A stretch of 64,000 nt of DNA, from positions 1 through 64,000 of the forward strand of contig JAQGDQ010000197.1 of the NCBI GenBank assembly GCA_030141605.1, written 5' to 3'. The notes beneath the pieces were generated by a model, which saw only the letters and a program-made list of their open reading frames with translations, had not been told where the DNA came from and made no database searches. The position numbers were made by a program, and so were the translations under genes. Source of the DNA: Tubiluchus corallicola. Its lineage: Eukaryota; Animalia; Priapulida. How positions within the stretch are numbered: the first letter of the stretch is position 1; every line of letters begins with the position of its first letter. This document shows positions 10,698 to 40,800 of the stretch, in pieces.

Positions 10698-10757
10698 CAA
10701 GCTTTCAATGCGCAATGACAAGCACACATTTGCTTAATAACAGGGCTGGCCCTGACA
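10698..10757 (-). repeat. 60-bp remnant of the 5' LTR
   Basis: Exact 60-bp direct repeat of 6347-6406, followed by the TSD and joined almost directly to the gag zinc-knuckle region. Confidence 0.88.
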
Positions 10758-12369: not shown

Positions 12370-15300
12370 ATGAGTGAGTCAAGGAATGCCCAGAGGTCTG
12401 AGCAAAGCGAAACAGAATTTAAGGGTTGGCTGTACAAGTGGACAAATTATTTAAAGGGTTATCAGAAACGATGGTTCGTGTTAAGCAGTGGTAATGGACT
12501 GTTGTCTTATTACAGGTAACTTAATCTAGATTTTTATTGCATTAATAAAATTGGATATGGCCTCACAAGAGGTTTAAATCCAAATTCGCTGTTTTGCGAG
12601 TTTAGTGCATAGTGATAGTTGATAATTGATTTTTGTATGGAAAAAATGTGTGAAAAGTCAAGTAAATGGTCAATGATTTTATTTAAGATTAATAAAATTA
12701 GGGGCGACGGATACAAGCTTTAGAAAAACGGTGAACCCGGCAAAAAAGCTGCTGGGGCAGCAGATTAAAAACAGCAATTAAGGCAGCAGAGGATTTTTGA
12801 GAAATAGGGACTCGAAGAATGATGACCTTCAGTTTAAAAAAAATACATGGCAAGTAATATGACGAAGAAGAGAAACTATAAAGAACTAACACTGAACGCA
12901 AAAAATGGTCAAATTAAACAAACTCATGTATACAAATACTTGTGAGATTGATTTAATAGCAAAAACAATTATCAGCTTCTGTTTGAAAAAGAAAAGAGAA
13001 GCTGAAATTTATGATCTCAGAAGTAATGAATACTAGTTGCGAATCTAAAGTTGGAACTCAGGGCTAGATTAATGTATAGACAAACTAAGCATGTACTTAG
13101 GGCACCAAGCTGGCAAAAAATAAATTGAAAGCAGATAAATTTTTAATAAAGTATGTTAAAGACCATAAACGTTTTTCACAGTTCAAAATGTGAGGTAGAG
13201 GGCTACAGGAGAATAAAGCATCGTGGCTAGGTTGTTTTTCATATCATTACATAGCATCATATCAACTACCTGATATGTATTAGCAATGTATTGATATTTT
13301 TGCTGTTCATCTATATGAACAATATTACTAATCATGTCACGCTATATCGAGGAATGGGTGGTGAAAAGCCTCCAAAATGGCCCCTTTTGCCCGCAAAATT
13401 TATACCTCTTATTTCTAGACATCTGGAACAGGCCAGGCTGGTGCTGGTAATGGTTGGATATGGTGGGTGTAGCAGACATATTTCCCATTTTTACTGCACC
13501 TGATGGGACTTTAGGAAGGAGATCTATAGCTCTTTGGAAAAGGGAGCTACATGATGATATTAAGCACATTATGAATAAATATGAAATATACCAATATCAA
13601 TATGATACAGTGAATATAAATGCAATAACCAAATATTAATCAAAGGAGAAAAATGAAATTCATTTATTTATAGAAAAAGAAATTAAACTTAAAATTGAAA
13701 CAATGACAAAATTAAGATTCTTAAAAACCAAAAGCTTTCAAAGACAAATGTATGTTTAAAAATGCAGGTTAGATGAAATGAAAGATATTATTTCAATCAG
13801 GCGTAACATGATAGATGTTAAAGCGAATTGTAAAAAAGCTGTATAAAATGGATCTGAAATGTTCTTTATGCCATATAGCAGCGGCTACTACTAACTAAAC
13901 ATCTTCTTGAATGTAAAGCTGTGTATGTCGACAAATTGGCCTATCAGCGCAAAATGTTCATTTCGGCTTCACTGATGAAAGCCATGATATCCTGAGATGA
14001 TTTGATGATACCAAAATAACTGTTAGTTTTGGTTTGGACTTTTAATCAAATGATTGCTTGCTCTGCTAGCAGTTAAGTGGCTGCCTGAAATTTATATCAT
14101 CTTCTGTGAGCCTGCAACTCATAATATGAGGAGCTGATTCACCACTTGTTTTGTTGTGCTACCGAATCAACTGCAAAGCAACTTACATGGCATGCAGAGA
14201 TATCTTTGTTTAAAACTCCAGTTATTTCAGCACATTGTTTTTACAATAAAAGTCATTAAAGCAGGACTTCCCCTCCCCTTATCAGTAATTGAAAACAATC
14301 ACTAAATGTTCTAATGCTTATATTCATTTGATGTGTTCTAACTGCTATTCTGAAAGGGGCCCACCCCCGAAATCTGCCACTGGTAATTTACAATGATGTT
14401 GTCATAAAGCTTTGTTGCGTTTCTATAAAGGACTTTCAACAGTATTGTGATCCTGCATATACAACTTGAATTGTTTTCACCTTAACTCACTATTCTGACT
14501 ACCCCACCATTGTAAATGTTCAATAGGAGACTTGGCAGCTTCTTGGGAAGAACCCGTGATGAGGTTATGCAATACATTTCTTAAGGATTGTCAAGTTACT
14601 TGTGGTAGGTGCACATCCATAGAGGGCTACTGTACAAATAAAAAACTGTAAAATGTAAGAATAATCGTAATATATGCTAGCTTTTTCAAAGTTTCACCTG
14701 TCGTATATTTTTCATTTAACTACGATAAAAATAATGCTATAAACCATTACTAGTTTTATCCAGAATTTATGCTATTAGGCACTGTTTGCATTTGCTACAC
14801 GAATAATTACCCTTATTAATCATCACCCGAGCCTGATAGTTCAACCTGGTTCCAATGTGAAAATGTGGTACCTAGGCTGACATTGCTAATTTGTTGATAA
14901 AGCATGAAATTGAGTAATTAAGAAGTCTGGCAGATAAAAACTCAGTCCAATTGCCTTGTGTGCTTTGCAAACCAGCTATCAATTAACTACAAAAAAACCA
15001 AATTTATGATAATCAACAATAAGCAAATTAACAATGCTAATAATCCAAAATTTCATATTATAATAAACAAACACAAAATTGAAGAAACAGACAACATCAA
15101 ATACTTGGGCCTACTCATTGATAATAAATTAACATGGGAACCACATATAAAACACATAACATACAAATTAAGTCGAATTACTGGAATAATTTTAAAAGTA
15201 AGGCACTACGTTGACCAATATATTCTGAAACTTCTATATAATTCGTTAGTTTTCCCTTATTTACAATATCCCATCTTAGCATGGGGTACAGCTTTTGCAT

Positions 15301-18300
15301 CAACTCAAAAATTAATACAGACACAACAAAACAAAATAGTAAAATTAATAACTTTTGCTCGCAAATATGATCATGCTACACCATCGTTCGTAAAATTAAA
15401 AATTTTAAAAGTAAGAGATATTTACAATCTTGAGTTGTTCAAATTTATGTATAAATTCAATGCTGGTTTATTACCCGAACTTTTTAGAGAATATTTCACT
15501 AATGTTTCTGATATACATTCCTACTCCACAAGAGCTGCTTCTAATGAACAGTATTTTGTGGAGAGATTTTTTACCCGACATGGTTTCAATAGCTTAAAAT
15601 CACGAGGAGTTAAATTATGGAACTCGTTGCCAAAAGATACCTTTGGCGGTAGCTTATTTTCTGCTTCCAAAAAATACACAAAATTCTTACTAAATGAATA
15701 TACCTGTAATACATAACTTGTAAGACTAATAAGCAAGCTATCAAGTGTGTTTTTTTCTTCTCATCTCCTAAGTAATTGTTGCTCTTTCTTATACTTACTT
15801 TTTCTCTTAAATTTTCTATATTACACTTTTTTTTGATACTTATTTTATCTCTCCATACAGTCAAAATCCCCTGTCAATAAGGCCCCTATATGAAAATATA
15901 TATAATAATCATAATTACTTGTATTGTTTTGTTTAGATTTTGGTGTCATCTAACTTTATTATTTTTTGTTTTCACTTATACTGTTTTCATTTATACTTTG
16001 TTTTCATTTATACTGTTTATTATTATTATTTTTTTTCCTATTTGATTTTGTTATCCGCAGTCTCACCATTTACTTTTAATATACTAATTTAATTATTAGA
16101 CAGGGCAGGAGACTAGATGACCCTATGGTCCTTCCCTGCCCTGCTCCACTACTATAATTAAGTAATAACTAAAAAAACTTGTCATGTCAAACAAATGGAG
16201 AAAATAAATGTTCTATGTCTATGTGTGGTAAAACATTAATTTTCATGACTCATAGCATGTGTGTTCAGGCCCTCAGCTTGTAATAACTGAATACTTGTTG
16301 TTAAGATAACAGTGCAGTTAGTTGAAATGCACCAGTGGTTGTTTTTATTTGTGAATGTAAATGATTACAGTTTGTGCATTGCCACTGAATCTTTACAGTC
16401 GGGTGTACATGACGATGTAAGAAAAAAGGTAGGCCCACCCTGAGTCAGATTTTTGCTACCTGTGCTAACACTTATGTTAGGTAGGCTACTGCAGACAATC
16501 ACTTATAATTTTCTAAATGATTCAACTATAGCCGTACAGCATTTATTTTAGTAAAAGTGAATGAGCCTTTTCACAGTTTCGCTATCTGCATGTGCAGTTG
16601 CTGTAGGTCAAAGGTTAGGTGAACCTCAGCAACGTGTCTTAAGTACTAGCCACATGACATGTGGGTAAAGCAAAGCTGTCTACCACATCAATTCAGTAAC
16701 TTCAGTTATTTTATGTGGACTTTACCTAATTATGCATTAGTCTGTGTGATGTATAGTGAGTGATCTTGCAAGATCTTGCTTTGGAACAAGAAAAAAATGT
16801 ACTAGGTAAGGTTCTAGCTAGCTGTTAACACTGTTACTATTACAATAGCATGGGCTAAAGTTACTGACAACAATAAGCCTCTAATTTTTTAAAGATTCAT
16901 AGCTTGCTTGCTTATTTGTTCTTCTTTTTCTATCAATGTGTATATTGCCAACTCAAACTATTAAATTTCTCATTGAGAAACTAGTTTAGTTGCTGCTGCT
17001 GTAGTGGTGAAAGTATTCCTGAATGGTACTAAAAAACTAATAAAGTAATTAAAAACTTAAATTATACTATGATAATTTTTTTTCAAAAATAAAACAGAAT
17101 TCTCACATGTCATTGGTATAATTTTTAATTTTTTGAAGTTTCTTAAAACTTCACTGGGGAACTTTTCAGAGGTATCCAGATCTCCTACCTGCTATTTCGG
17201 TAGAATCTCTTGGATTAACACTCAAAAATTGGCAGTGTACTTTATACATGAAACTCTGTGAAATGTGTTGCCATGTCAACAACTGCAGCACTATCGTAAG
17301 AGGTGCTTTCACAAACAATAGCACACAAGGTTCAAGAGAATGCTGATTTAATTTGTAAGAAATATAAAATACATAAAAAGTTGCAAAGCAATTGTCTGAC
17401 TATAGGTTACCAAAATTGTTGGCATCTTACATGTAACATATTTTTTGCAGCAAGGCAAGACTCTTAGGGTTTCCAGTAATGTCCAGAAATTCGTTTATTA
17501 ACATTAACTTCTCTGATTGCGTTATATCTGTCATCCTCAGTGCACATTCAAAAGCGCTCAATGAAAAGTTACAAACCAAGTAGAAGCAGATATCGTGGAC
17601 ACCAGAAAGACACTGTTTTGGCTGTCCAATGCAATGTCTAGCTCGTTTCCAAATTGAGCACTTTTTTGCATTTAGTGAGGTCTTTAGCTGGAACTTTATT
17701 ATTTCAGAACTCATGCTGAAGTGGCACATACGTGTCGGGGAACTATCTCTCTTCAAGGTGCATTCATCCACACGGAAGATTCAAACAATTTTACTGTTTC
17801 AAATGGAGGATCAAGAACATTTCATCTAAAAGTAGGGTTTTTATTGCTTTATTATTTATAAAAGCATATATGTTTCTGAACTTAATTAATGGCTTGTACA
17901 TTTACTATTTAGAGACAAGTAAATTTACATGCACGTGCTGTAAATGCTTCTCTGTTGGCAACTTCTACTTAAGTACTGCTATCATATTTTGATTTATTTT
18001 TTAGGTTTATTATGCATTATTTCAATGCGTAAGGCACCATACATAAATTTCAATGTGATCACGAATTACGTATTTAGTTTTTTGTCCAGTGAGTCTCAGT
18101 CTATGTGCATTGCAACAACTATAGGGTTACAACTAATATTGAATATTTCAGGTAGATTACACATCTTGTTAGTGATCACAGTTTCAGCCAGAGAGCAAAT
18201 TCTGTAAACAAACATGGCTGCACACACAGGAAAACAGCGATCTTTTAAATTAAAAAATATGCTTTAATGTGATTGAAACTTTCAGCTATGTATGAAAATT

Positions 18301-21300
18301 TGGAGAACATGTAAAGTTCGATTGGTTCGATTCGTTGAATAACCTGGCAAAATAAACATATAGAGCCAGTTAAGGTCGTATATTTTTTCCTTGAAAAGTA
18401 CCCGTATACGTGTGTTACTAAATTTACTGTCTTCAACTTAAACATAAAATTACCATGTACCCGTGTACCCCCAAGTTATTCATAGCTAGTGTTTGTCATT
18501 CTCTATGCAGGATCTAGGATCTTTTTCTTTGAGTGCGCAAAAGCTCCAATTTGTTCGATACCCAATCACTGCTTCAAAGCTTTAATTTGTAACTGAAAAC
18601 TGAATTCAATTGTCATTTTTGGCTTGATACAATAAATTCTACTTGGGCAACTTTACAAATTAAGCAAATAGAGTAGGTCTTTCAAAAACATTTTTAAAAG
18701 GTCAGCAGATTATCAGAATGATAAACAGTTTAACAGTTTATTCTTTATAAGCTTTCACCATAATGAAATAGTATCAATGGTGTTTTATAAAATAATGCTT
18801 TGTAATAATAATAGCACATAAATCATTAGTACAGAATCACCTAAAATCTAAAAAAATCACTTTAAATTATGATAGAAATAAAAAAATCATCAATAAAAAC
18901 TAAATCATCGCACTAATAAAACGTCTTAAACTGTAATAATTAAAATGATAGACCCATATTTTTAGATACCACTTCAGTTACCAAATAGACCTATTGTATT
19001 AATTTATACAAATGCTTACTGAAACAGGTGAGTCTTTACAAACAAATTTTGCACACCTTTCGTAAGATAGAGACTGCCAGTAGGTCTTGAGGTGCATGAA
19101 ACATGCGATGATTTTGTGTGTTTGTTTGTTTGATTTTATTCTGTTATTATTATCGAGCGAAAACATTGTTTAGGCCGCATCTGAGGTGGAGAGGCAAAAA
19201 TGGGTGACTGCTATTGAGCTTGCCAAAGCGAAAGCAATTCGCAAGATGGAAGAAGGTTAGTTGTGTAAGCAGGTGTCTGCATTCTGCAAGATATTGATCT
19301 TGTATTATTTATAACCATAATTTGATTTTCTTGTCTGGATAATGGTCTAATGTTCGTTACGTGTACATGCATTATAGAAATCCTAACTTAAAAATCCACT
19401 TTTAAGACAAGTTAATGCATCTGTGGCTTCAGTACACTTGACACCTATTATGTGTGTGGCTAAGGCAATTTAGCTGAGTAATCACAGTGTCTGCTTAATG
19501 ACCAAAGTTAAGCAGTGGTGAACCTAATTAGTAATTTGAAAAATTTTCTAGGTAGTTTATTTTATGTTAATTTTTCATTTGCCTTACCATTTATTGTGTT
19601 GTGGAAGAATGTATATCAGCTTGAACATGGTTAAGATGCCTCTGCTGATTTAGTACCTCATCTTAGATTATGCAATCTTATGAGGTACAGTAGTTAGTGT
19701 TCACTTGTGCCACAATAATTATTATAGTAACTAGGTCTTGTTGTGAAATGCTGCTGGAACTGTTTCTGGAGGGCAACTTGCAGAATGTCAAACTGCATGA
19801 AAAAATGTCACTGATGATAATTCCTCTTTTGTTAATAATCCTACATTTCATGCTTAATTTCTTGCAAAGATGTGAGGCATTTTTAACCAATCTCAGATTG
19901 AATCCTTATTGAAATCCCCAGATCATGAACAAATTCCATGCTAGTGTTGTTTAATATGCCTTTGATACAAACAACTCATTCAAACTGATATAGTCCAGAT
20001 CTAAGTAGGATTATAAAATTTGTGCAAAATTCTGATATATTCACTTTTGTATCTTATTTTGCTGAGGACAAAAATAAATTTATTTTATTTTAGCTGATGA
20101 AGAAGTGGTTCAACCAGAACAACCAGATAAGAATGAATTGCAGAATACTCTACGTTTGCTCAACACTAAATTAGAAGAACTTAACACTTGTAATGATTTA
20201 ATAACTAAACATGGTAAGCATTCATGCATCTTCTTATACTACTTACTTCTGGGGTTCCCACTTGTGGCTGAGCAAAGATTACACTGTATGTAGTATGTAG
20301 GTTTGGAAACTGGAAAACTTATTAACTGTGCACAAATATCCTATGTTTTGACAGGGAGTCAAAAAGTCTTCCCAAGTAAAATACGTGACTAAATTAATAA
20401 GTTAATTATTTCAGAAGCTAGCCATAAGAGTAGATCTATAATAATATGTTGGAGTATTGGAAAGGCTGAAATTTCCAGAAAACAGCGTGAAATATTGAGG
20501 GTTGTTTTCCAGAATCACTGAAGGGCCTATGAAATACCAAGGACTGTTCTCCTGATTATCTTTCATAATGAGTTAGGATAATACCATCAACCAGCCTTAA
20601 AATCCATAGAAGTGAATTATTGATTATTTGATTTTCACTAGGTGCAACACTACAGAGGTCACTTGCTGAGTTGGAAAATTTGTCGACAACATCTCCGCAA
20701 GAACTTCCACAAAGATTCAAAACTGCCAATGAACGAGCGACGTTGTTTCGAATTACGACAAATGCAATGATCAATGTGCGTACATTCTTTCAAATTTTAT
20801 TTTTTGCTGTAACTGTGATTAATAAGTTACAATAACTTTGTTACCTTAGTGCATGTATCATGCTAAGCTAGCTGATTGACGTCAAACATATTGATCTATC
20901 GCTTCGCCTCCGCTGTGACATAAGCATGCTCAGCGGTATCCGGGAGAACAGTTCACGCTGGACAACAACTGTCCAAACTAAGCGAACACGAAATTAACAC
21001 TTCAAATAATGTAGAGACGAAGTTTCAAAGCACTTCAAAATACAGAGACACAAGTATAATAAAGAAACTAAGCCGGTTAGCCTTGCTTTACAATAAATGA
21101 GCAACAAAAATATTAAGTCTTTCTTGCCTTTAAACATACGAACATCAAGCCTCCAATGTATTTTTCTATATTAATTGATCATGTGCTCGTCTGCAAGATT
21201 TGTTAAGTTTTTGTATTTCTCCGCGTGTCAGGCTATGGAAATGGAATAAATTTGACTGTTCCATTCCATAGACGACCCTTATATTGAATGCCCGAGTCAC

Positions 21301-24300
21301 ATAAATCCCATTGGCATCTTTTAATTATGATTATAACCAAAAAAATAGCGTAAAATTAACTAATATTACATTGATGTATGATATAAGTTTTGACAACATT
21401 TGAATTAATTTTGACAGTGAAGATCTCATTGAGGTTTATAAAAACTGGCCAGAAAAAAAACCATTTTGTTTTGTCCTTATTTAAAGTTAATCAAATACTT
21501 GTTTTTGTCTAACTTGCAAAGTCATAAACTAAACTAAACTGCGTATTTTCTTGATTGGAAAATGGTTTAATCAACAACTCATAGACATAAGCTTGTGCAT
21601 TTCTTCCTATAAACGAAACTAGACTATATATTTCCATCAATTCACTTGCAATTTCAGTTGACAATATAGTAAAATCTAGAACCAAGCCAATATTTCTCCC
21701 GCTAGCTAATGAAAAGTTGAGCATTTTTCATAACAGTGTTAGACAGAGCTATGGCTAAATGTCCCGAACGTACCTACTTTAATTAAGCTCTGCAGGGGTG
21801 TGTGAAATAACTTGCACGCTGACTGGGCAGTCAACGAAAATGATTAACATTATATTAGATATCAATTGCAAAAACTTCCATGCATTTGGCTTTCGTTCTA
21901 AGCATTACAGTGGCTCAGTGAACATCTGTGGTTGTTTGAAGAAGAGCTTATAAATTTCAAAATCAGCTCAATAAATGATCTGATCAAATTATTGTAATTA
22001 AAATATAACTTGTAAGTTTGGGAAGTATAGAGTATAATTTTATGTAGGTCTGCTTGAAACAATGGTAGAAATTAGAAAATATTTTCATTTGTAGCAACTG
22101 TATTTATCAATTTTCAGTCCGGCAGTCAGCAGCACAGTTGGTAGAATGATAGCTGTGGTCCGGTGAAACAGGAACTGAACTCATTATCAAGAGTAACTTT
22201 CGAGATTATACAGTGAACTGGTCGAGATGTCTTGACTATGGTCAGTTGTGTACACTCTCCCATAATGATAGAAATGGCCAGTGTGAGCCCAATTGAGTCC
22301 AGTTTACTGTCCAGTTTCTGCTTTACTGAACTGTTGTAGACTTGCCATTGTCACTCAGACACAACAAAATTACAAAGTAACACAAACAAGAAATGATGAA
22401 GACAAAACCGTATCACCACTTGTTGGTTGGCTGAAATTAAGATTCTGGTATTTTATGAGCATTTTTATTTAAGATAAATTTTTAAAACTGCAGAATATGT
22501 AAAATAACTTGTTTTTGCTGTTTTATTTTCAGGCTTGTTCAGATTATGTGAAGCTGACGCAACAGCAGGGTCATCGCTGGGTAAGAGCTCTACAGTATGA
22601 ACACGAGCAAAGACTTCAGCTGGAGGAAATGGTTGAACAACTGGCTAGACAGCATAGTAGTCTAGAAAATGCTGCTAGGCAACTAGCACCTGAACCCTTG
22701 AAAGCTAAAACAAGTACAGGCGGTATGATTTGCTACCACCCAATTTTTGCTTTGAAGGTCTTTCCGATGTCCTCAACAAAGTCCAGAAGTTGTAATTTGC
22801 AAATTTACTTACAATTACTGTAAGTAGTTATAAGTTTGCATTTTTGAAGCCAAGCAAGCCTTTTCACAGTTTTGTTGTGCGCACGCACAGTTGCTGCAAG
22901 TCAAAGGTTAAATGCACCAGAGCAACGCATCTTAATTACAACCATCACGTGATGTGGGTAAAGCAAAACCATCTGCGATGTCTGGTTCACTTAACCTTTG
23001 ACCTTTTCACGATCATCATCTATAATAACGGTTTATGCCTTCCTTGGTGACGTCGAGTTCGATCAAACACAAGTAATTTTACTCATTTTTACCTAAACTG
23101 TATAAAAAAAGGAAAAATATTGTATTTTCTTGGCAATCAAAAACAGAAATACTGTGAAAAATAGCGACTGCCTTTCTCATGTTTTTGCTGGACTATGCGT
23201 GAAATATTAATTTTTGCATTTGGTTGTTTGCTTGCAGCTCATTTGACTCCAGAAAGCGATGAAGACGAATTCCACGATGCAGTGGAAACAAATGAAGTAG
23301 ATTTTGAGGTCGAAATACCCGTGAAGACACATAGGTGTGTAAACCATATAAACATTGTTTATAAGGCCTATATAACCCCAACAGACATTGAAGTTTTTAT
23401 TAACGCATTATTATGATTACACATAAAATTGATGGTTATTTTTCATGAAAGAAACTTATAATTAAATAACTTACCTTTTTGCTCACGAATTTCGAACACG
23501 TGCATTGTCGTAAGGATCACCATGTTTCATGTCTTTGGCGCGAGTAAGCGAGAATGACGTACATTGTTCTTCAGAATGCGTCTTTGGTTACCAATGTTTG
23601 TTTATTGATCTTTGATGACCTCATAATGTCATTTACGTCTCTCAACAAAAAACTGCAGTTTTTCAAATTTAATACTGCTAATAGTGAAGTGATAAAAAAT
23701 CAAAGGAAACAAGTTTTACAGTAAGTTTAAATAAAATAAATCAAATATTTGTAATGAGAATAGGATTTTAGGTTGTAAAAGCTTATATTATGGTGAGGAT
23801 TTAGTTTTACTTTAATAATAATAATTTATTTTTTATAATTTGTAATTATGTCCACGAGTATCGCTGTAATGGGATGTTTAAGCAACTCAGCTGAATCGAT
23901 CAAGGCTGAATGAGTTCTAGCACTTTTGGTGACAATGACTGAATCCTAGCTGATACAGTGCATTTAAGATTTGATGTATAGTTTTTTAGTTAAATTTGGT
24001 TCGAGAAGATTGCATTGAAAAGCACTGGTAAATTCTTTTATGGCTTTCCAAGTTTTATCTTGTAAATTTGCACTTATTTACAGTCAACCACACATATAAC
24101 AAAAAACAGAATAACATAATAAATCTTTGTGACAAGCAGAACAAAGCATTGCAGTATTTGCTCTAGAGTAATTAAATTATAATTGTATGTTTACCTGTAC
24201 GTAATCAAGTTGTACTATGTTTAGGAGAACAGCCAGTGGCATAAGTATAGCATCCATGGGTTCTGAAGGTGCATGCTATGATGAAGAAGATCAAATGTCT

Positions 24301-27300
24301 AATGGCGAATATGGTGAGATGTATCGCAAGAAATCCGTCACTGCCAGTGTTGTAGCTACAAAGAGCAAGTCTAGCAAAGACAAGATACACGTATAAAATT
24401 CCCTCTAAATTTATTTCTATTTAAGCAGAAACTTGTTTATATTATCATTTTAATATCGCTTTAACAAGTCATGTAGCTTTAGCATTGTCAAGAATTCATT
24501 TTATAATGTGAATTCACTTGATATGAGATGAACTTTTGAGTTTGAATCATAGATTTAAATGCCACACGTCGGCGAAAGATTGAACAATACATTGCGAGTG
24601 TGTTTGCGTACTGCTGTTTTTGCCTAACAAATGAACGCAGTTTTTACCTAAGTACATCTTACCCGTTGTTTGTCTTACAGCAGACTGTTGATTTTGTATA
24701 ACAAAATGGCACCCATTGTTGGCAATTTGTACAAGTCTAGCAGTTTCTTTGCTCCTGTGCAGCATGTCATTCTATGACCTGAAAGCACAATTTGTGCAAT
24801 GTGTGGTGTACATTTATTTATTTTATATCACGTTTATTTCAGGTTATGACAAGTACCATAGAACAGTAAATAAAAAGATTTCATTAAAATCATTATCTAA
24901 AAATGTTGCAAGACAAATAAAAATAAATATTTGCACAAAGAACAGAGGATTAGTAAGTTAAATATTTTAAAAAATTGTTAGTAAGTGTGTATTCCCAAGG
25001 GGCAAAAATTTTCGAAGTTAAAATGACATCAGTATTCAGAATAAAAATGTGTATGACTATGTTGTTTGAATTTAGAACGCGCTGACGAAGACTAAAGTAA
25101 CTTCTATTTATTATATACTAGTTATTCTAGCACATTACTTTCTGTGCTTTTTCCCTTCACAATGACAATGAATTATTGCTTAATTTAGTCAGATGAGGTA
25201 CAAGATTTGCATCGAAAACGCTGTCATTCGGAACAATTATTCCAGCACCGGCAAGCGCCATTTATCCGATGCACTAGTGCTCCGGGCACACCAGTGCATC
25301 CTTCGACTACTAGGAGACGTCGAACTGGGATTAAAGACCGTCCAAATCACAGTCTGAACCTGTGGAGTATCATGAAGAATTGCATCGGCAAAGAACTCTC
25401 AAAAATTCCCATGCCGGTAAGTGCGAATATACCTGCCTGATCTTTTATTTCTTTACTCGGTTGAGTTACTGTAACTTGATGTCTACTGCCTAGTGATGTC
25501 AACCATGTATTGACTTATCTAGAATTTCTAAGGTTTAAACTTGTAAGTCTGAAAATGTTCACTTAATGTTCACTCAATTAAATAATTGGCTGTAAATATG
25601 TTGTATTAAGTAACCACAAAATTTTATATGAAATTCTCATAACATTTTTACATGAAAAACGTGTGTATTGAACTCGCCTCATAAGTGTCAAAGGTGTGTG
25701 TGCAAACTAAATAATCTAAATTTTAAATGCGCTTGATCATCCTAATCACAACACAAAATTAAATTTGGAATTGAAAGAACATTTTAACTACTACTTGTTT
25801 TTTTAATTGATTTTGAAACTTCATTTGAGAGAAACTATAATGCAGTATTTATTTTTACCATGTTGCAGGGTGAGCTATGGTTTACTCATCTCACAATTTT
25901 GCCCATTCTGTTTCATTTGAATTGCCCATTTTTCAAACCATAAAAATCCAATTGTGGACTTTAGAAACTAATTCTATTCTTATATATCTAATGAGCAAGT
26001 TGATACCTCTGTGCACATGTATAATGAAAGAAATAGCTGGAAATAGCTTTTGTTTTTACATATGCAAATTCTTTCCTTTGGTTTTTTCACTGATTATTCA
26101 CGAAAATGTAGCATAAAAAAACTTGCAGTGTATTATTGTATTCCTGTAGGTTAATTTTAGTGAACCGCTTTCAATGCTGCAGCGATTGACAGAAGATTTT
26201 GAATACGCTTACCTACTAGATGGTGCTGCTCAATGTGATGATCCACATGAACAGATGGCGTATGTTGCAGCCTTCACTGTCTCATCATACTCAACGACAA
26301 CGAATAGAACTTACAAACCATTTAATCCATTATTAGGCGAAACTTACGAATGTGATAGACGTGATGATTTAGGCTGGCGTGCCTTTTCTGAACAGGTAAC
26401 GTTGTTTTTGTTGCTTGGTGTATTGCAATTGCACAGAATTGTGGGATTGATGATAATGCATGGCTAATTTGGTGAGAAACTAAGGGGAAATTCAAGTTAC
26501 ACTGTTATGGTTATTTGAATGACAGTAAGGTGTATTGCATGTAACATTAATCTACATGTCTTGGGATGACTTATGCTTGATTATACAGTAGGCGCTGCTT
26601 AATAGACTTACATTGGGTTGGAAGTGGTTTAACCAAATTATGCGATTGATATTATTAGCCAAAGGGTGTAGTATTACTAGTACAGAAGTTTGAGTCATTA
26701 TCACTCTTCAACTTAGTATGCACTGTAAAGGCTGTGAGAGCTTTAAATGTCAAGTCTTTATGCTTATGCTCTATATTTCAAAATTAATTCTGTGCTCTTA
26801 ATTGTTCTATGATCGTCTGCAATTTCGAAGAAAATGCATCTATGGCATAGCAATAACAGTTAATTGATTAAACCTTCTATGAGAAGCTGCAAGAGCTTAA
26901 AAAAGAAACTGCTATAGGCATGTGATTAAAAGTTTAGCTTCCATAAATTCTTGGGCAAGAAGGTTACTTGCATGGGATGAGCGGGTGACAGGTTCAAACC
27001 ATGTATTAGTGCATGATAAACGACCTGCTTACATACAAAATGGTACATAATATAATTGTTTCTACGTATGGTATAGTGTACAAAAGTGAAGTAACGGTGA
27101 AATAAAAGTAGTAAAAGCTCGGTCATACAAAAGTGTTTTATTTTAAGTACGTTAAGTGAAAATATTGAGGGAATTGTTTAGAATTATTTGATACAATTGT
27201 ATCAGTTTTATATACACCTGAATAGAAGCGGCACGTTCCAGACGTTTTAAGTCATTTCGGCGATTGATTCTGTTAACTGTGAGTCTAATAAATGGTGTCT

Positions 27301-30300
27301 ACTGTATTTCCTTTACCATGACGCATGTATTAAAATTCAATTCAGTCCACCCTTTATTTCAGCATTAATTATAAGTAACCTGTATTGTCTAACATGCATG
27401 GTATGGCCAAAAAGACCTGTGATATAATACTAAAATAAATTTTCTGCTTAGTTTTTTTTGAGCACTGCTTGTTCTGTTTAGTGTAAAATAGTAAAATAAT
27501 TTTACTAGTAACATACTAATTTGTACTAATATTTCTATTATTTTTATTTGCATGAAATGACTAACTGTGGACTAAAACCTGCCTGTTGCAAGCTTTGGTT
27601 GCCTGATATCTCCACACTGGGGATACTTTTGGTTTGGTACATTTAATTTATTAAAGCATGCTGTAATAACATGGTTACTGTTTAGTGTATTTGCCTGCTC
27701 AGTTCTAGTACTAACAAAGTAATATTAATTTCCTGCCACCTGTTTCTGATATTTTGACATATGTTGTTGATGCTGGTGGTATCAGAAGAATCTGAAACTA
27801 ACACAATTAAAAACTGTTCTATTTCTTAGATACGGCTGTGTTTATTTTCTAAAGTTGTTAAGCTAAAGTGACTCGGTACTATTCTAATATTCTTAACCCT
27901 CGGCAGCCGCAAATGGTTACTAATACACCCCGAACGTCTATATTGAGTTACAACTTTGTACCTTTGTACCATGAAGACATCACTACCTTTTTTCTTAGAA
28001 TCGTGTTTAAGTGGTTATCGGTCTACTATAAGGTGTCGTTTGACTTCTTGCATGTCATCCGCTTTGGTTGTAATATTGATTACAACTCAGTAAGGTGAGA
28101 TTTCACTCAAGCCCTGACATTGCTGTCATGTCGTATTTCTCTATTAACTGATATAGGCAAAAATGAAAAGTAAACAAATGGGAAATATTTTATTGTGCAT
28201 GTTAGCTGGCTTTAAAATGTACTGTTATTGTGAAAAAAATATCGTATGTTAGGCCATTAAGACTAAATTAAGTGATGTGACATACTTACTAATTAAAAAC
28301 ATGCCTTCTGACAATTTTCTTACAATTTTTAATGTGCAACCTTAATGCAGGTTTTGCTAATACAGCAAAGTAATCAAAGGTATGAAGTAGGTTTATTGAC
28401 CAACTGAACTAATATAGTAACATTTCTTCTATATTTATGCATGGAGAGAAATAATTCCATTGCTAGTATTCGCATGACTGTAGAACATTTGTAGGGGCTG
28501 AGAGTTAAGTATGTTATTTGCTGTTAATCTAAAGCACTTGTTTTTTCTTAAAGACCATCATTTCATGGCGTGGAATTCATTTTTCTTTTTGTGCAAAACG
28601 CTGCCAAAACAGGTTTGCTAACGTGTGTACATCAAACTAAACATGTGTAGGAAAATTTATTTTTTGTATTTTTTAACTCTTTATCTAAGAATTGATTTGC
28701 GACACAAAATTAATACATTGAAGGTACCGTTTTAACAATTCAAACCATTCTGTTTAAGCTGTTGTACAACACTTTTAATTATAAAGGATTTTTTGAACGA
28801 TCTTTTAACTTTGCTGAACATACTTTACCATTGGGTTTATTTACACGAGGGTGCCTCAGCCAGTTGAAAATGAATTATCTATGTATGAAGTAAATTATGA
28901 ACATATTTTAGGGAATTATTTTATAAAATATTATTGTGTTTTGTTGCTGTGTAAGCTTGAGTTTACTATGTACTGACGTTTTTCATAGAACAGCGTTAAT
29001 AAGTGTTATCTCAGAGTAAAAAAATTGTTAACAAAGTGGTTTTAAGTCGCTGATTAAAATCGGTCAATTTACCAAGTGATTTTGCTGTCAAACAGTTAGT
29101 TTCAGTTTATTTTACTGTGTGTTAAGGTCAGCCATCATCCTCCTGCAGCTGCAATGTACACTGAAGGAAGAGAGTGGATTTGTTACCAGGAGTTTACCAT
29201 GTCCAGCAAATTTCGTGGGAAATATCTCAACATTATCCCTTTGGGTGTAGCCCATTTAGAATTTCCTAGTTCAGGCAATCACTACACCTGGCGAAAGGTA
29301 TTGTAGAATGCTGTTTAATGCATCCTATTCAGCCTGTGCATAGAACTATGTTTCATTATTGTTTAGCAGGCGTCATGTCAACCAATCAGGCAACAAAGTG
29401 TACTGCAACAGGTAGGTTTTAGAGTTCAAAGACGTGCATTGTTGATGTTAATCTTTTAGGGCTCAAACTTGCTTTGCAAGCCTGTAACATGCTCTGCTTT
29501 TCGCATGGTATGCATTTCTCTAGGTATCGCATCACCCACCGGCTGCGGCACAGTTTGCCGAGGGACCCGGTTGGGTGATGAGTAAGGATTTCTGTGTAAA
29601 GAGCAAATTTCGTGGAAAGTATTTACAGGTTATGCCAATTGGGTTAAATCAACTTGAATTTACAAAGTCTGGACATGTATATACATGGAAAAAGGTAAAT
29701 TGGCAAGAGATGAGAAATCTTGAATGTTATGTGAGTTGTTTTATACAGCATGTTTGTTTTTTGTTGTTGTTGTTGTTATTGTGTTTTTCGATAAGATAGT
29801 TTGCTTTAGCTATTTAGCTGTTTGTACCAAGTAGTGAATTTTCTTAGTGAATTTTTTGTGTGATGTGAGTGCCGTATTAAGACAGTGGTTGGCATACTTT
29901 TTTATGCACTGCATAATTTTACATGATTTAAAAAGATCCACAGAGCAAATTCAGTAAAAACTGTTGTTGTGTCGGTTTGTGTAACATTTTATTCTTGTAC
30001 TGAATAAAACATTAGTGTTTCTATAAAGCTACATATATTGTGAACAGTGTTTAACAATTTACTATATATTATGGCTTATATATTTCATTAATTGATATGC
30101 AAACTCGTTTCAATAATTTGTTGCAAGAAACTAAAAGAAATTTGTTGAAACTGAAATCGAATGTAATTAGTATTATAAAAGTGACGTCGGACAATAATAC
30201 GGATTTTGCACCCCTTTTTTATTACTTTCCTTGTATTTTACATGGTTACTGTTTTAGGAGGTAAGTATTTATTGCACGTTTTTCTTTGCATGCTTCTTTT

Positions 30301-33300
30301 CTTACTGTTCTGCAGTCTGTCTGCTTTCAGTTTTAGTGAATCTAGTTTTTATTAAAATTGTTGCATTTTGTTTAAAGATAAAGTTTAGATTATAAAGTTG
30401 TGCAATTCATTCAAAAAATATTGGTCATGATTGCTTTAATTTGTTGTCACTTTGATGTTATACTTTGTCTTCATGTAATCTGTTGAAAGATTGCAATTGG
30501 TATGCCAGATGAAGGTGACTGAATAAATAGAACAATGCCTTTGCTTAAGTGGATGCTGGTAATTATTTTCACCTTAAGAATTCAATTTCTTCATCTCCAA
30601 TCTGTTTGGAAATTTTTCTGTTAGACAAAGGTTATTTGAGCCATCGCAGTTTCATCAAATCAAACATTTATGTAATTTGTATTGCTTTTTTAGCAGATGT
30701 GACTGTTAGAGCTTGCAACGTTAGTGATAGTCATTGGTATCATTGGACAGTAACTTGTACACATTTTAGTTTTGTGTAGAAAGTATTTCTTATGTTTTAG
30801 ACATAAATGTATTTGTGTGATAAGTTTATGGACCTTTTGAGCCTCATGAAAAACGATGTAAGTCTGTTTAACGTAAAGTATTTCAGATGAAAGTGAAGCT
30901 TGTAATTTTTTACAATTCAATTCAATACATTTATTTGTTTACCTATGGTTATGTCAAGCTATTTGCCACAAATTTCATTTTTAACTAATTTTTTTACATT
31001 GCACCTTTTGTAAATTTTCTACACAACATTTTTAATACTTGCGTGATTTTCATGATATTTGTTGCTGTGTAGGTGATGACAACAGTTCACAACATCATTG
31101 TTGGAAAATTGTGGATAGATCAATCAGGAGAGATGGACATTGTCAATCACAAGACAAAAGATGTTTGTCGGCTAAAATATTATGCTTATAGTTATTTTTC
31201 TCGTGAAGCACCGCGAAAGGTATTTCATCTTAGTTTTATATAGTCACTTTAACAAAAATTATGAAGTTATATTTATAAAAAGCAATTTTTGTTTTATAAA
31301 ATATCACAATTTAGGCATTGGTCACTTGGGCAATTATCACACGCAATTAGTACATGCGGTAATTGATAAGAAATAATGGTACTATTGCATGTTGAAGATG
31401 AGTAAGTGTTGAGGTTGAGTATAATACTAGTAAGTTCTGAATGCACAGTTCCATAAGAACAAACTAGCTATGAGTAGATAGTATGGAACTTATTTGCTGC
31501 ACAGCATTTATTTCTTATCAAAGCCTCTTTTTATTGAGCATGTTGGTAAGTTCATAGATACATCTTCACTATAATAAACTTTATTGTATTATATTATCAA
31601 ATTTATTAATGTGGTTCTGAAGAATTTCATTAATTTTGATTGTTACGCTCTCTAGGTTACGGGTGTTGTGACAGATGCAGCTGGTGGTGTACGATGGGTG
31701 TTATCCGGTCATTGGGATGATAAGATTGAAGGTGCTAGAGTCATTGAAAAAGCTGATAACAGTAGCAGCTTTACGTCTAAGCAGAGTAGTAAGCCCTTGT
31801 TAGAAACGTATGCACCAGTTTTACTATGGAAGCGACGTGTGCCTCCGTAAGTCATAATTTTGTTATTAGCGCTTTTCTGTCATTTTCTGGTGTTTCAAAC
31901 AATTTTTGGTCATTTTTGCCTCTCTGTTACTCTCGTAATCAACGTGGCATTGGTTAGATGGTTAGAATTAGTCATGATATACAGAGTGACTGACAGCCTA
32001 ATTCTAATATCTTCTATGTGAAATTTTATTTCTTAATTGGCCTAACTTTCTATGGGATTGTGTTAGGAGATGCTCTAGGAGTAATCTGATTAGTTATAGC
32101 AGATGATAATTCTGAATTTACTGGTTCATTTCTTTTTTGTACACAGACCTGATAACTCGCGATTCTATAACTTCACTCAGTTGACAGTTCAGCTGAATGA
32201 ACCAGAGGAAGGTGTAGCACCCACGGATTCACGAAAGCGACCAGATCAGCGAGCTATGGAGGAAGGTGATTGGGATGCTGCTAATGACGTATGCACTTTT
32301 ATCCTCTTTTACTCTAGTGCATATTTTGTGAAGTATTTGACTCAGTTTCATTCAAATGTCAGCGTGTAAATTTGTCTAGATGACAGTTTTAGTGGTTATT
32401 AATTGCATATTGTTTGATTCTATGTTGGCCTGTTTTGATAACATTGCGTAAAGTACAAATTAACACTTTGTTTAGGGGATTTAATTTTTTACGTTAACTC
32501 AGAGACCTTGTTTTTGGTAAATTTCTTTAGAGGCACTAGATGCTAGTGTAGTAACTGTACTCCTTAGAAAATGTATTACACAAGAGCAGGTCCTCCATTG
32601 GTAAATGATTTGATATTATAGCTAGGCAATGTGAATATCTAATATCTAGTAAAAAGCCTCTAGGTTATGTTGAAAATGTATGAGCAGTTAAACAGTATGT
32701 AACAAAATGATAGTATTTGCAATGAAGTTGTATTACAATTTTACAGTTGAAAGTGAAGCTGGAGGAGAAACAGAGACGTAAGAGGCGTGAGAGAGAACAG
32801 GAAACTGAGAATGCAGCTGCCCAGGGTATGTACACGTGTCCTGTGTCCTGTACCTGTACACGTGTCCTGTTTTCTACTTGTGAATGTATTGGCGAAACTG
32901 TCTAGCTTTTTGCCCCTAATTTTTCCATCTTAGTACTAACTAGTTGCATGCAGAAACGTAAGAGTTAATCTCTAGATTGTTCGCTAGCAAACTATGGTAC
33001 TAGCATTTCAAGTACTTTGTGAGGGATAAAATTTTAATAGTTTTTCTCCGGTCCTTTTGCAAGTTTTTTGCACCTTGAATTTAAAGATATTCATCGCTGC
33101 AGTTGCTGAATGTAGCTTTATCATTAATTTGATGCTTTCAGTTACAGTCGTGTATAATTTGCAGGACGGCCTTTTAAGCCTTACGAGCCGGTGTGGTTTC
33201 GAAAAGAACGTAACCCTTTGACAGGAAGTTTAATACATATGTACAAAGGGAACTATTGGGAATGTAAAGAGGTGCAAGACTGGAGCATGTGTCCAAAGTT

Positions 33301-33340
33301 ATTTACTCTCGAGGAGGCGGGACAATCAGCATCTCCATAG
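12370..33340 (+). CDS. OSBP: Oxysterol-binding protein (OSBP/ORP4 subfamily): PH domain, coiled coil, FFAT-like motif, ORD; 812 aa with one copy of exon 11
   Basis: Manually spliced GT-AG exons with consistent phases: 12370-12515, 17708-17831, 19174-19255, 20094-20213, 20642-20775, 22533-22722, 23238-23334, 24225-24390, 25189-25416, 26150-26395, [29127-29297 or 29524-29694], 31073-31219, 31656-31846, 32147-32288, 32747-32825, 33165-33340 (2439 nt). Motifs: [74 protein letters not shown]. Confidence 0.96.
13520..13925 (+). mobile_element. Highly degraded LINE ORF2 C-terminal fragment in OSBP intron 1
   Basis: Broken frames read ..[28 protein letters not shown], resembling a LINE C-terminal zinc knuckle. 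Many disruptions. Confidence 0.4.
14945..16225 (+). mobile_element. 5'-truncated CR1/L2-group (Crack-like) LINE with 3' UTR, in OSBP intron 1
   Basis: ORF 14958-15716 has [41 protein letters not shown] and HSYSTR. The 3' UTR has a stem-loop CAGGGCAGG(16101-16109)/CCTGCCCTG(16135-16143), AATAAA near 16203 and a short (CTATGT)-like tail. Confidence 0.85.
22161..22329. repeat. Degenerate MITE-like inverted repeat
   Basis: CGGTGAAACAGGAACTGAAC versus the reverse complement of GTCCAGTTTCTGCTTTACTG (about 15/20). Confidence 0.4.
22857..23007. repeat. Palindromic MITE-like dispersed repeat (second, partial copy at about 16564-16680)
   Basis: AGCCTTTTCACAGTTT...GTCAAAGGTTA...ATGTGGGTAAAGCAAA is shared by both loci. 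Internal inverted repeat GTCAAAGGTTAA..CCAGA / TCTGG..TTAACCTTTGAC. Confidence 0.6.
27572..27711 (+). promoter_or_regulatory. Upstream intronic element complementary to the 11a/11b intron (candidate selector)
   Basis: 27572-27590 pairs 19/19 (one G-U) with 29404-29422. 27598-27607 pairs 10/10 with 29385-29394. Further colinear blocks are 27692-27699/29365-29372 and 27701-27707/29341-29347. Confidence 0.75.
29127..29297 (+). CDS. OSBP: OSBP exon 11a (candidate mutually exclusive exon)
   Basis: AG|GTC...AAG|GT, 171 nt, phase 0/0. Translates as [57 protein letters not shown]. Confidence 0.93.
29336..29491 (+). promoter_or_regulatory. Inter-exon intronic element (candidate docking site for competing RNA duplexes)
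   Basis: Complementary to 27572-27711 upstream and, in shorter colinear blocks, to 30241-30335 downstream. Confidence 0.65.
29524..29694 (+). CDS. OSBP: OSBP exon 11b (candidate mutually exclusive exon)
   Basis: TAG|GTA...AAG|GTAAAT, 171 nt, phase 0/0. Translates as [57 protein letters not shown]. Confidence 0.9.
30241..30335 (+). promoter_or_regulatory. Downstream intronic element (candidate competing selector; contains a candidate 3-nt microexon at 30258-30260)
   Basis: Shares ACATGGTTACTGTTT(T)AG and TGYCTGCT..CAGTTYTAGT with the upstream element. Nested complementarity to 29341-29491. TTTTAG|GAG|GTAAGT. Confidence 0.5.
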
Positions 33341-37856: not shown

Positions 37857-40800
37857 CTATAATTCATCGTGATCCACGGAGGTGTCAGCATCTAAGAACC
37901 AGTCCTCATAAACCTGATATGGATCAACCATCCAGTGTTTGTGGAATGAAACTGGAAGCTGGTGACTTAGGTAATCTGCAGCATAATCATCTGGTCTTGC
38001 CTGAAAGCAAAACAAGTTTGAAAACTGAGACTGAACTTAGCAGAAATATTTATGCTACAACAAACAAAGAAAAACAAAACACATAGTGTACAATACTTAC
38101 ATATTTTTTGGCAATTTTCTATTACAATAATCATTAATTGTGAAATTTGCACAGATGTAGCAGAGGATAGCAACTTTTAACGGCATGTTCAGATTAAAGG
38201 AGTTTTCTCGCCAAGAAAACTTGCAGTAGGTTGTCGTGTAACACACAAGCACATTCAGAACAGAGTACATCAACTCACAGCAAGTTTTGAACATGTTTGC
38301 AAGCTACTTGGTAGTTTACTTGGCAAGAAAACTGCTAGTCTGAATGCATCCTAAAAATGCCTACTCCACATTGGATTTACCCAAAACTGCTAGTCTGAAT
38401 GCATCCTAAAAATGCCTACTCTACATTGGATTTACCCAAAACTGCTAGTCTGAATGCATCCTAAAAATGCCTACTCTACATTGGATTTACCCAAAACTGC
38501 TAGCCTGAATGCATCCTAAAATACCTACTCTACATTGGATTTAACCAAAACTGCAAGTCTGAATGCGTCCTAAAAATGCCTACTCTACATTGGATTTGCC
38601 CAAAACTGCTAGTCTGAATGCATCATAAAAATGCCTACTCCACATTGGATTTACCCAAAGCTGCTAGTCTGAATGCATCCTAAAAATGCCTACTCTACAT
38701 TGGATTTACCCAAAACTGCAAGTCTGAATGCATCCTAAAAATGCCTACTCTACATTGGATTTACCCAAAACTGCTAGTCTGAATGCATCCTAAAAATGCC
38801 TACTCTACATTGTATTTACCCAAAACTGCTAGTCTGAATGCATCCTAAAAATGCCTACTCTACATTGGATTTACCCATCAATGGCATATGAAATTAAGTC
38901 CCTGGTCATCTTACCTAACAAATGATGCAAAGCCATCGTGGTAGACCAGAAGCTTGTTTTTTTTGCTTCTTGATAAATATTTTGTGCCATCAAATTATGG
39001 GAGATTGCAACTCATTACTACAGCAATCACAGAAAACGGGACCTGGCAATTAACGCCAAAGTAAGCAGCATCATAAGAATGCAACTGATGAGGCACCTAA
39101 TAATACAACTGCATATCTACTGAGATCAATGAATATGCGTAGATGACGTGACAGTTTACCGATGTTAAGTATCAAATATTGGTAGTCATCAATGTCTTTA
39201 TAAAATACCAAAAAAGAGAAACATTTTAATGAACTTAGTCACAAAAAAGTTATTTTTTCAATAGCTGGACTCTACACATACAGTCATGCAAGACAAAAAT
39301 TAAGATAAGTGTCACTGAGCAGATGGTACTGACAAGTGAATAAAGATTTTTAAAAAATGGCCACCAAATAATAACTGCAATAGTATAAAATGCTGCTTTA
39401 CTGATGCTGTGTCATACTTCAAACCAAGCAAGTGACTTTGTCAAGACTCAGAATGACTCGGACATATTCACTGTACCCAAAGTAAATTTAATCAGTAGTG
39501 GCAAATATATTTTACGTCAACACTTTTGCCATGCTGTTTAACAATTTTTCCACTAAGCTAACCGAATATTAGATGTACAATTGTATGCACAATGCCATAA
39601 AAAAATTCCATATATTACAAAAGCTCATTCACCTGGTGGAAATAAGGGCTATGTGTAACAGGTATGGACAGTGATTTCAAGCACATGCCAATCGTCATAT
39701 CATCGGGAGTGTCCGGAGTTGGACATCCACATCGACCACTGTCCAGCATTCTCCTAACTGCTTCCATGCTAAACACCATACTGAAAATACATAACTTGCA
39801 CATGTCTAAGCTTTCAAGTTATAATGTAACTCATACAAAGTAAAAACCAATAGTTCGTTTTTGCTCTGAATTAGTGTGATATCTTTCTTGATATTTTTCA
39901 GAATTTTAAAATCAGTCACTTGCCAAACAGTAGGGCAACGAAGTGTTATATTATAATATTTATTGACTATCTGACACATTACAATTATACAATTCATTAC
40001 AAATATAATGCAATACATTACAAGTGGAACAAAAAAACTATACAGGCACAATCTTTGCTTATATATCAGCAAAGAGCTGCAAATGGCAACTACAAGTTTT
40101 AATGCACAGAAATTCTCGGTCATTACTATTACTAACAATAAATTGAAAAAAGCTCCATCGAGACCTAAAGCAAATGCCAAGTATCTGTGAGGTCACTTTG
40201 GATAACCAACAAATTTAAGTTTATTACAAATGAAATGTACAATTACTGAACATACAAAGCTATGAAACATGTTGTTAGGTAATGTCTTTGGTAGTCTCAT
40301 CTCTATTTGATTAATAACTAAAATTAAACAAAACGAATTAATTTTACACATGAAAGAGCCAGTCTCTAGGAATGAATATGGTGTTTGTTAAGAGCAGATG
40401 ATCGTTTCAACAACAACTGTCATTGTCAATGTTAGGAATCAAGCCAAAGCAGAAAAATATTTATGACACAACAATAAACCTATACAAATAATTAATACAC
40501 TAATGATTTGGTTTGGCTTGTTGTAGTGCCATAAATGTATTAACAATTTGGATTGATTTCTAGCATTGATAATGACAGTTGACGTCGAAGTGATCGTCTA
40601 TCTTAATAAACACCATGTTTATTAATTTTAATTAGTGATTATCGAAATGTATTAAGTATCCAAAAGTAATTGGTATTTTTTATGAAAACCGGCAGTAAAT
40701 TACCTGCTGCCACCAGTGAGGTAGTCATAACCAAATCCTGCTGTAGCTCCATATGCATAGCGTTCTCCTAATGCTACTGGTTCATGAGAATTATAACAAG

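What the first reader, a model, noticed from the sequence alone, without database searches (positions are those of the whole stretch)
29127..29694. Tandemly duplicated, probably mutually exclusive exons swap part of the OSBP lipid-binding domain
Seen: two adjacent 171-nt phase-0 exons, each with an open frame and canonical splice sites, separated by 226 nt. They are 32/57 (56%) identical in protein. The SHHPP signature, SKFRGKYL and YTW.K are retained despite heavy synonymous divergence, while the segment between differs radically ([17 protein letters not shown] vs [17 protein letters not shown]). Known: the EQVSHHPP histidines bind the PI4P head group, and the following strands build the ORD barrel that carries sterol or PI4P acyl chains. 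Inference: both exons are under selection, and including both would duplicate barrel strands. One gene therefore likely makes two lipid exchangers with the same PH/FFAT targeting and PI4P site but different pocket lining, possibly different cargo or drug (OSW-1/itraconazole) sensitivity. I do not know of this arrangement being described for OSBP, but cannot check the literature.
Basis: partly seen in the sequence, partly recalled or inferred. Interest (0 to 1): 0.88.

Follow-up and report, generated by a model that had tools for sequence, protein, structure and literature searches.

The report
Swappable duplicated exon in lipid exchanger
An invertebrate gene for the sterol/PI4P exchanger OSBP carries two intact, old copies of an exon that builds part of the lipid-holding barrel; they are likely spliced one at a time, probably steered by a long-range RNA duplex, and moths and oysters have alternative copies of the same segment, likely evolved separately.

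Summary
Observation confirmed: two 171-nt phase-0 exons (A 29127-29297, B 29524-29694), 32/57 identical, in a complete 16-exon OSBP gene whose closest exon hit is priapulid. Synonymous sites are saturated (pS 0.77, pN 0.33), so both copies are under purifying selection. A is the conserved form; B diverged.

Two new results. (1) A 34-bp duplex (27572-27607 with 29385-29422; -52 kcal/mol against -30.7 ± 1.5 in 35 shuffles) brackets exon A and would loop it out. (2) The same segment has alternative forms in RefSeq X1/X2 isoforms of Spodoptera frugiperda and five oysters, and double copies in two more moth gene models. Oysters duplicated a shorter exon, and Spodoptera B shares an insertion with moth A, favouring separate origins; tree tests do not reject one origin.

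Not shown: splicing in this animal and any difference in cargo. The PI4P histidines and the tunnel Pro and Lys are kept in both copies, and the inhibitor-tolerance site lies outside the exon, so the drug idea is weak. No paper found. New member of a known kind.

The parts
12370..33340 (+). OSBP gene (PH, coiled coil, FFAT-like acidic motif, ORD); 16 coding exons per isoform, 812 aa
26150..26395 (+). Constant exon 10, ends in the EQ of the EQVSHHPP signature, phase 0
27572..27607 (+). R1: intronic arm (candidate docking site), complementary to R2, single copy in the window
29127..29297 (+). Exon 11A, conserved copy (88% identical to Priapulus XP_014662043)
29385..29422 (+). R2: arm in the intron between the copies (candidate selector); pairing with R1 (34 bp, 2 G-U) would loop out exon 11A
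29524..29694 (+). Exon 11B, diverged copy, open frame and intact splice sites
31073..31219 (+). Constant exon 12, phase 0

Best explanation
This OSBP gene holds two intact, long-diverged copies of the exon encoding the PI4P-binding HHPP hairpin and the next barrel strands; they are likely spliced one at a time, with a predicted 34-bp intron duplex that would loop out copy A to select copy B, likely giving two exchangers that keep PI4P binding but differ in the barrel wall. Shown: the two exons, their selection signature, the complementarity, and the position of the segment in the fold. Inferred: A is the default form when the duplex does not form. B is a regulated form, fine-tuning sterol preference or exchange rate rather than switching cargo class. 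How B is skipped when A is used is unknown: no second significant pairing was found. The alternative copies in moths and oysters likely arose independently (about 0.7).
For: Selection: pS 0.77 against pN 0.33, Fisher p=2e-6. B changes 9 of 35 conserved columns against 16 of 22 variable ones, p=0.0008. Duplex: -52.0 kcal/mol against a mean of -30.7 (sd 1.5, best -34.0) in 35 dinucleotide shuffles; top-ranked of 3 inverted repeats in the 21-kb gene; arms not repeated in the window. Homologues: S. frugiperda X1/X2 differ at 32 positions, all within 496-551. M. gigas, C. virginica and S. cucullata X1/X2 differ at 15-19 positions, all within 485-524. O. edulis and C. angulata also have both forms. 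An unnamed Logan record (P0127; 768 aa on a 3,293-nt contig) has the oyster B form joined to both flanks. Structure: the moth B isoform folds as an ORD (segment pLDDT blocks 67-95; Foldseek 7V62 E=7e-44). In a model with both copies, the second copy has pLDDT under 50. Independent origins: oyster B ends at column 40 whereas window and moth exons run to column 57/58; Spodoptera B shares the extra residue before column-17 Trp with moth A and caddisfly.
Against: No junction evidence from this animal. The duplex was not tested for conservation or covariation, and no partner that would exclude B beat the shuffles (best -31.0 against a shuffle mean of -29.2). Including both or neither stays in frame. 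AU tests reject neither one origin of all B copies (p=0.13) nor window B with moth B (p=0.42). They also do not reject window B with priapulids (p=0.575) or oyster A with oyster B (p=0.27); 57 columns only. B keeps the common Gln at column 35 where A, both Priapulus genes and Gordionus have Asn, which hints at an old duplication. Which residues face the pocket was inferred from strand alternation, not from coordinates. The double-copy fold used a gene model with an extra mispredicted insert and an alignment mostly empty over the second copy.
Confidence: 0.72

Rival explanations
1. The exons are mutually exclusive, but the R1:R2 complementarity is incidental (for example the ends of an old transposon), and exclusion rests on splice-site competition, protein regulators or a distant branch point.
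For: No second selector upstream of A (best -23) and no significant downstream pairing. A TTAAT branch-point-like motif lies at 29315, 18 nt after the A donor.
Against: Both arms are single-copy in the window, and the immediate flanks show no target-site duplication. The arms bracket exactly exon A. Twelve AG dinucleotides lie between that motif and the B acceptor, unlike a distant-branch-point intron (PMC7969005 passages).
Confidence: 0.12
2. One ancient duplication, in an ecdysozoan or protostome ancestor, was kept in this lineage, moths and perhaps oysters and lost elsewhere. This concerns the origin only and is compatible with mutual exclusivity.
For: AU tests do not reject joint B clades (p=0.13, 0.42). 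Window and moth exons have the same boundaries. B keeps common states at columns 10, 16 and 35.
Against: The oyster unit is a different, shorter exon. Spodoptera B shares the moth/caddisfly insertion. The free tree puts moth B in a starred, mostly arthropod group (95/90) apart from window B. 23 of 30 clusters read show no alternative form.
Confidence: 0.25
3. B is a rarely used or decaying copy under relaxed selection, with no distinct function.
For: Long branch (1.23 against 0.06 for A). B changes near-invariant columns such as Q21K and H43Q. Its expression here was not observed.
Against: Open frame, intact splice sites and pN far below pS after synonymous saturation. Changes avoid conserved columns.
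Confidence: 0.1
4. Both exons are included together, or the pair is an assembly artefact.
For: A+B is in frame. Some automatic gene models join both copies (P0014, P0131, P0230).
Against: 57% DNA identity rules out a collapsed haplotype. In a double-copy model the second copy does not enter the barrel. RefSeq isoforms of S. frugiperda carry one copy each.
Confidence: 0.06

Closest known systems
Tandem duplicated exon substitutions / homologous mutually exclusive exons (PMC9741552, passages read)
   Same: Adjacent homologous exons of equal length and phase swapping a segment of one domain; recurrent in orthologous genes across phyla.
   Different: Cases in the passages read are mostly ion channels and transporters, and the paper states that the ten calcium-channel events affect different exons. 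Here the same segment recurs in three lineages. OSBP is not mentioned in its main text or its one held supplement.
Docking-site/selector and bidirectional RNA pairing (Dscam exon 6, srp, 14-3-3zeta; PMC6071210, passages read)
   Same: An upstream-intron element complementary to an element upstream of the second exon would loop out the first exon.
   Different: Only one significant pairing was found; no competing selector and no crossing second duplex. Conservation is untested.
Human OSBP/ORP4 subfamily ORD (PDB 7V62)
   Same: Domain order, EQVSHHPP signature, K577-equivalent; best sequence and fold match.
   Different: No such exon pair was found for human OSBP: the supplement hits I viewed for the human catalogue were OSBPL9 and OSBPL5 candidates with unrelated peptides (PMC5740500).
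RefSeq OSBP isoforms X1/X2 of Spodoptera frugiperda (XP_035448246/7) and oysters (XP_011442354/XP_011442434, XP_022340468/9, XP_062568739/40, XP_048743919/20)
   Same: Alternative forms of the segment starting at VSHHPP; conserved first form, diverged second form.
   Different: The oyster unit covers only about 40 codons. The B sequences are not alike across lineages (43-53% identity to window B). They are automatic annotations, and I found no paper on them.

Membership tests
OSBP/ORP4 subfamily | PH domain, FFAT-like motif and ORD with EQVSHHPP | tested here: met
   Pfam PH and Oxysterol_BP hits; acidic EFHDAVE motif in the model (FFAT label recalled); best PDB hit 7V62.
OSBP/ORP4 subfamily | Sterol/PI4P exchange activity | not testable with these tools
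   Needs a lipid-transfer assay.
Homologous mutually exclusive exons | Adjacent homologous exons of equal length and phase with intact splice sites | tested here: met
Homologous mutually exclusive exons | Both copies under purifying selection | tested here: met
   pS 0.77, pN 0.33, p=2e-6; pairwise A against B only, no orthologous B available.
Homologous mutually exclusive exons | Transcripts include one copy and only one | tested here: inconclusive
   Not observed in this animal. Met by annotation in moth and oyster homologues.
Docking-site/selector RNA pairing | Strong complementarity between a flanking intron and the intron between the copies | tested here: met
   34 bp, -52 against -30.7 ± 1.5 kcal/mol in 35 shuffles.
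Docking-site/selector RNA pairing | Competing second selector or crossing second duplex | tested here: not met
   Best alternatives -23 to -31 kcal/mol, at the level of the shuffles. It works like half of such a system; membership is not claimed.
Docking-site/selector RNA pairing | Conservation and covariation of the arms across species | not testable with these tools
   No related genome was available.
Steric-hindrance or decay-enforced exclusivity | Branch point within about 50 nt of the upstream donor with no AG downstream, or frameshift on co-inclusion | tested here: not met
   Co-inclusion is in frame; the 226-nt intron holds 15 AGs including the acceptor. Branch points were not mapped.

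The most novel reading that the evidence does not exclude
The HHPP exon of OSBP is a hotspot that was duplicated independently at least three times (this priapulid-like animal, moths, oysters). Each time the second copy replaced the near-invariant Met at column 25 of one barrel strand, mostly with Val or Ile as in human OSBP, so that one gene makes a second, RNA-structure-switched exchanger tuned to different sterols in animals that take sterols from food.
Probability: 0.3. Interest if true: 0.8.

Novelty: new member of a known kind. Interest (0 to 1): 0.62.

Why it matters
If true, a core lipid exchanger can diversify its binding barrel by splicing instead of gene duplication, and the same solution was reached repeatedly. 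The natural A/B pairs differ in one segment on an otherwise identical protein, so they are a clean test of what sets sterol preference and exchange rate in ORDs. The moth and oyster pairs make this testable in animals with ample RNA data. The duplex is an unusually clear candidate RNA switch in a little-studied phylum.

Tried and rejected
Own genome: none held.

Sequencing runs: no RNA holder listed. X1 behaved like DNA and covered only part of exon B, without differences. X2, a possible RNA run of a relative, bridged 25415>26150 and ran 19 unshown letters past 26397; nothing of it lay on either copy. This is no evidence either way.

Second RNA pairing that would exclude B: candidates 29331-29372 with 29870-29913 (-31.0) and 29473-29515 with 30677-30719 (-29.8) are at shuffle level. 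The local fold of the intron between the copies is not unusual (z=-1.15), nor is that of R1 (z=0.02).

Decay-enforced exclusivity: rejected, all combinations are in frame.

Drug-sensitivity idea: the tolerance site M446 and the docking contacts D453 and T491 map outside the exon.

Tree: 57 columns, bootstrap not settled, four AU tests all non-significant. The barnacle cluster's low identity is a one-residue indel between species, not an alternative form.

Representative search: all 150 listed hits had one stretch, so no further double-copy lineage appeared.

Literature: one search gave 1 paper (listing only, on RBFOX2/Scarb1), one search gave 0, one search gave 1 (listing only, unrelated), one search gave 0, one search gave 0. 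Earlier findings of the scan: none.

Full report
Observation. Exons A (29127-29297) and B (29524-29694) are each 171 nt, open, flanked by AG and GT, and 226 nt apart. They share 32/57 residues and 98/171 bases, with 35, 44 and 19 of 57 matches at codon positions 1 to 3. Both match Pfam Oxysterol_BP positions 103-159, between the flanking exons. A 16-exon GT-AG model spans 12370-33340 and gives 812 aa with A or B, 869 aa with both and 755 aa with neither. Only this exon has a second copy in the window. The best single-copy hit of A is Priapulus OSBP at 88%, and exon breaks match the Priapulus models, so the animal is probably a priapulid or kin (inference).

Selection. Nei-Gojobori pS is 0.77 (saturated) and pN 0.33, Fisher p=2e-6. 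Neutral simulation reproduced an open frame with 32 or more identities in 0 of 20,000 draws, and 1 of 20,000 at half the divergence. As reference I used 85 distinct segments from 105 of 119 proteins; 14 were dropped for indels, a double copy or a known B form. A is 38-50/57 identical to them and B 27-36/57. B changes 9 of 35 conserved columns and 16 of 22 variable ones, p=0.0008. So B is an old, fast-evolving but constrained copy. It has no close relative in the database (best 63%).

The same segment varies elsewhere. Spodoptera frugiperda RefSeq X1 and X2 differ at 32 positions, all within 496-551. X1/X2 pairs of Magallana gigas, Crassostrea virginica and Saccostrea cucullata differ at 15, 17 and 19 positions, all within the first 39 residues of the segment. 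Ostrea edulis and Crassostrea angulata also show both forms. Gene models of S. exigua, S. frugiperda and Choristoneura fumiferana hold both copies in tandem. An unnamed Logan record encodes a full 768-aa oyster protein with the B form on a 3,293-nt contig, so it is spliced. That RefSeq isoform models rest on RNA data is recalled, not checked. Of 30 clusters read (at most 15 members listed each), 7 belong to these moths and oysters and 23 show no alternative form. Three of the 23 have a single member, and annotation can miss rare exons.

One origin or several. Read-through ORFs of oyster B break off after column 40. Many unnamed vertebrate-like and lophotrochozoan-like ORFs break at the same place, while caddisfly-like and moth-like ones break after column 58, as the window does after 57. 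The oyster duplicate is therefore a different unit. Spodoptera B shares an extra residue with moth A and caddisfly. The tree of 50 rows and 57 columns places moth B, oyster B and window B apart, with moth B in a starred mostly arthropod group that also holds Octopus and Dimorphilus. Against this, AU tests reject nothing: all B together p=0.13, window B with moth B p=0.42, window B with priapulids p=0.575, oyster A with B p=0.27. I put independent origins at about 0.7.

RNA duplex. A repeat search of the two introns found arms at 27572-27590 and 29404-29422. They extend to 34 pairs (2 G-U) between 27572-27607 and 29385-29422. The best 50-nt duplex is -52.0 kcal/mol, against a mean of -30.7 (sd 1.5, best -34.0) for 35 dinucleotide shuffles of the intron between the copies. 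It ranks first of 3 inverted repeats in the gene, and neither arm recurs in the window. Pairing would place exon A in a loop, as in the docking-site/selector model (PMC6071210, passages). No second selector or crossing duplex beat the shuffles, so the step that skips B is unexplained. Decay cannot enforce exclusivity. A distant branch point fits poorly with 15 AGs in the intron (PMC7969005, passages).

Protein. An AlphaFold model of the moth B isoform puts the exon on the HHPP hairpin and the following strands (501-508, 513-524, 528-540, 546-550), and its best match is 7V62, human OSBP ORD with cholesterol. In a model with both copies the first folds into the barrel and the second has pLDDT under 50; this is weak, as that gene model has an extra insert. 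The signature histidines bind the PI4P head group (PMC7385082 and PMC8049286, passages). By counting along the PDB alignments, the exon spans human OSBP 520-577. Its column-38 proline is ORP1 P688, whose mutation lowers sterol binding (PMC6381110, passages). Its last residue is K577, a predicted 25-hydroxycholesterol contact (PMC11830314, passages). All are identical in A and B. M446, which confers inhibitor tolerance (PMC9786093, passages), and F440, D453 and T491 lie outside the exon. What differs is mainly columns 18-26 and 35-43.

Shared changes. Columns 20, 24 and 25 change in all three B lineages among 24 conserved columns, which happened in 1,909 of 100,000 random draws (post hoc, columns treated as equal, one moth used). 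Column 25 is Met in 83 of 85 references, Val in window and Spodoptera B, Ile in four oyster B, apparently Leu in Choristoneura B, Ile in human OSBP and Trp in ORP3, which binds no sterol (PMC8049286, section 15). That column 25 faces the pocket is inferred from strand alternation only.

Prior art. Recurrent tandem exon duplication is known (PMC9741552 and PMC3342872, passages); neither mentions OSBP in the main text. The one held supplement of the first has no hit. The human catalogue's supplements gave 17 hits in 3 files; those I viewed were OSBPL9 and OSBPL5 with unrelated peptides, and 10 of 12 in file 4 were not viewed (PMC5740500). A 2024 family review has no occurrence of splicing, isoform or exon (PMC11359446, term search). 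Searches found no description. The library lacks most subscription journals, and insect or mollusc exon catalogues in supplements I could not see may list it.

Verdict. A real, selected exon pair, likely mutually exclusive (about 0.8), with a strong candidate RNA switch and a recurrent counterpart in moths and oysters. The functional difference is untested. New member of a known kind; interest 0.62.

Noticed in passing
window 24225-24228: Tandem acceptor: exon 8 can start at 24225 or 24228, both giving open full-length models that differ by one residue.
   Followed up: no
P0015 and P0017 (Priapulus proteins): Priapulus has two OSBP genes on different contigs. The second gene's exon shares four residues with window B where A differs (columns 10, 19, 48, 51), so it might descend from a B-like copy; the tree groups it with A.
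   Followed up: partly
window 17729-17830, minus strand: A stretch of the Priapulus model XP_014670942 matches the antisense translation of the PH-domain exon, suggesting a local inversion or misannotation in that record.
   Followed up: no
window 37860-39818, minus strand: Exons of a Fringe-like glycosyltransferase gene converging on OSBP (Pfam PF02434 hit for 39618-39818).
   Followed up: no
window 877-2352 (-), 3229-4266 (+), 55871-56941 (+), 9283-10704 (-): Retroelement remnants: three reverse-transcriptase frames and one frame with an aspartyl-protease-like match below the curated cutoff.
   Followed up: no
window 16580-16860 and 22940-23020: High-depth repeat pieces inside OSBP introns, including a 21-nt inverted match 16605-16625 with 22984-23004.
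   Followed up: no
P0230 (Choristoneura) and P0132 (Spodoptera): Moth B copies are far more diverged than window B and alter the KFRGKYL stretch; some oyster and moth B forms also replace the Ser before HHPP with Gly or Cys.
   Followed up: partly
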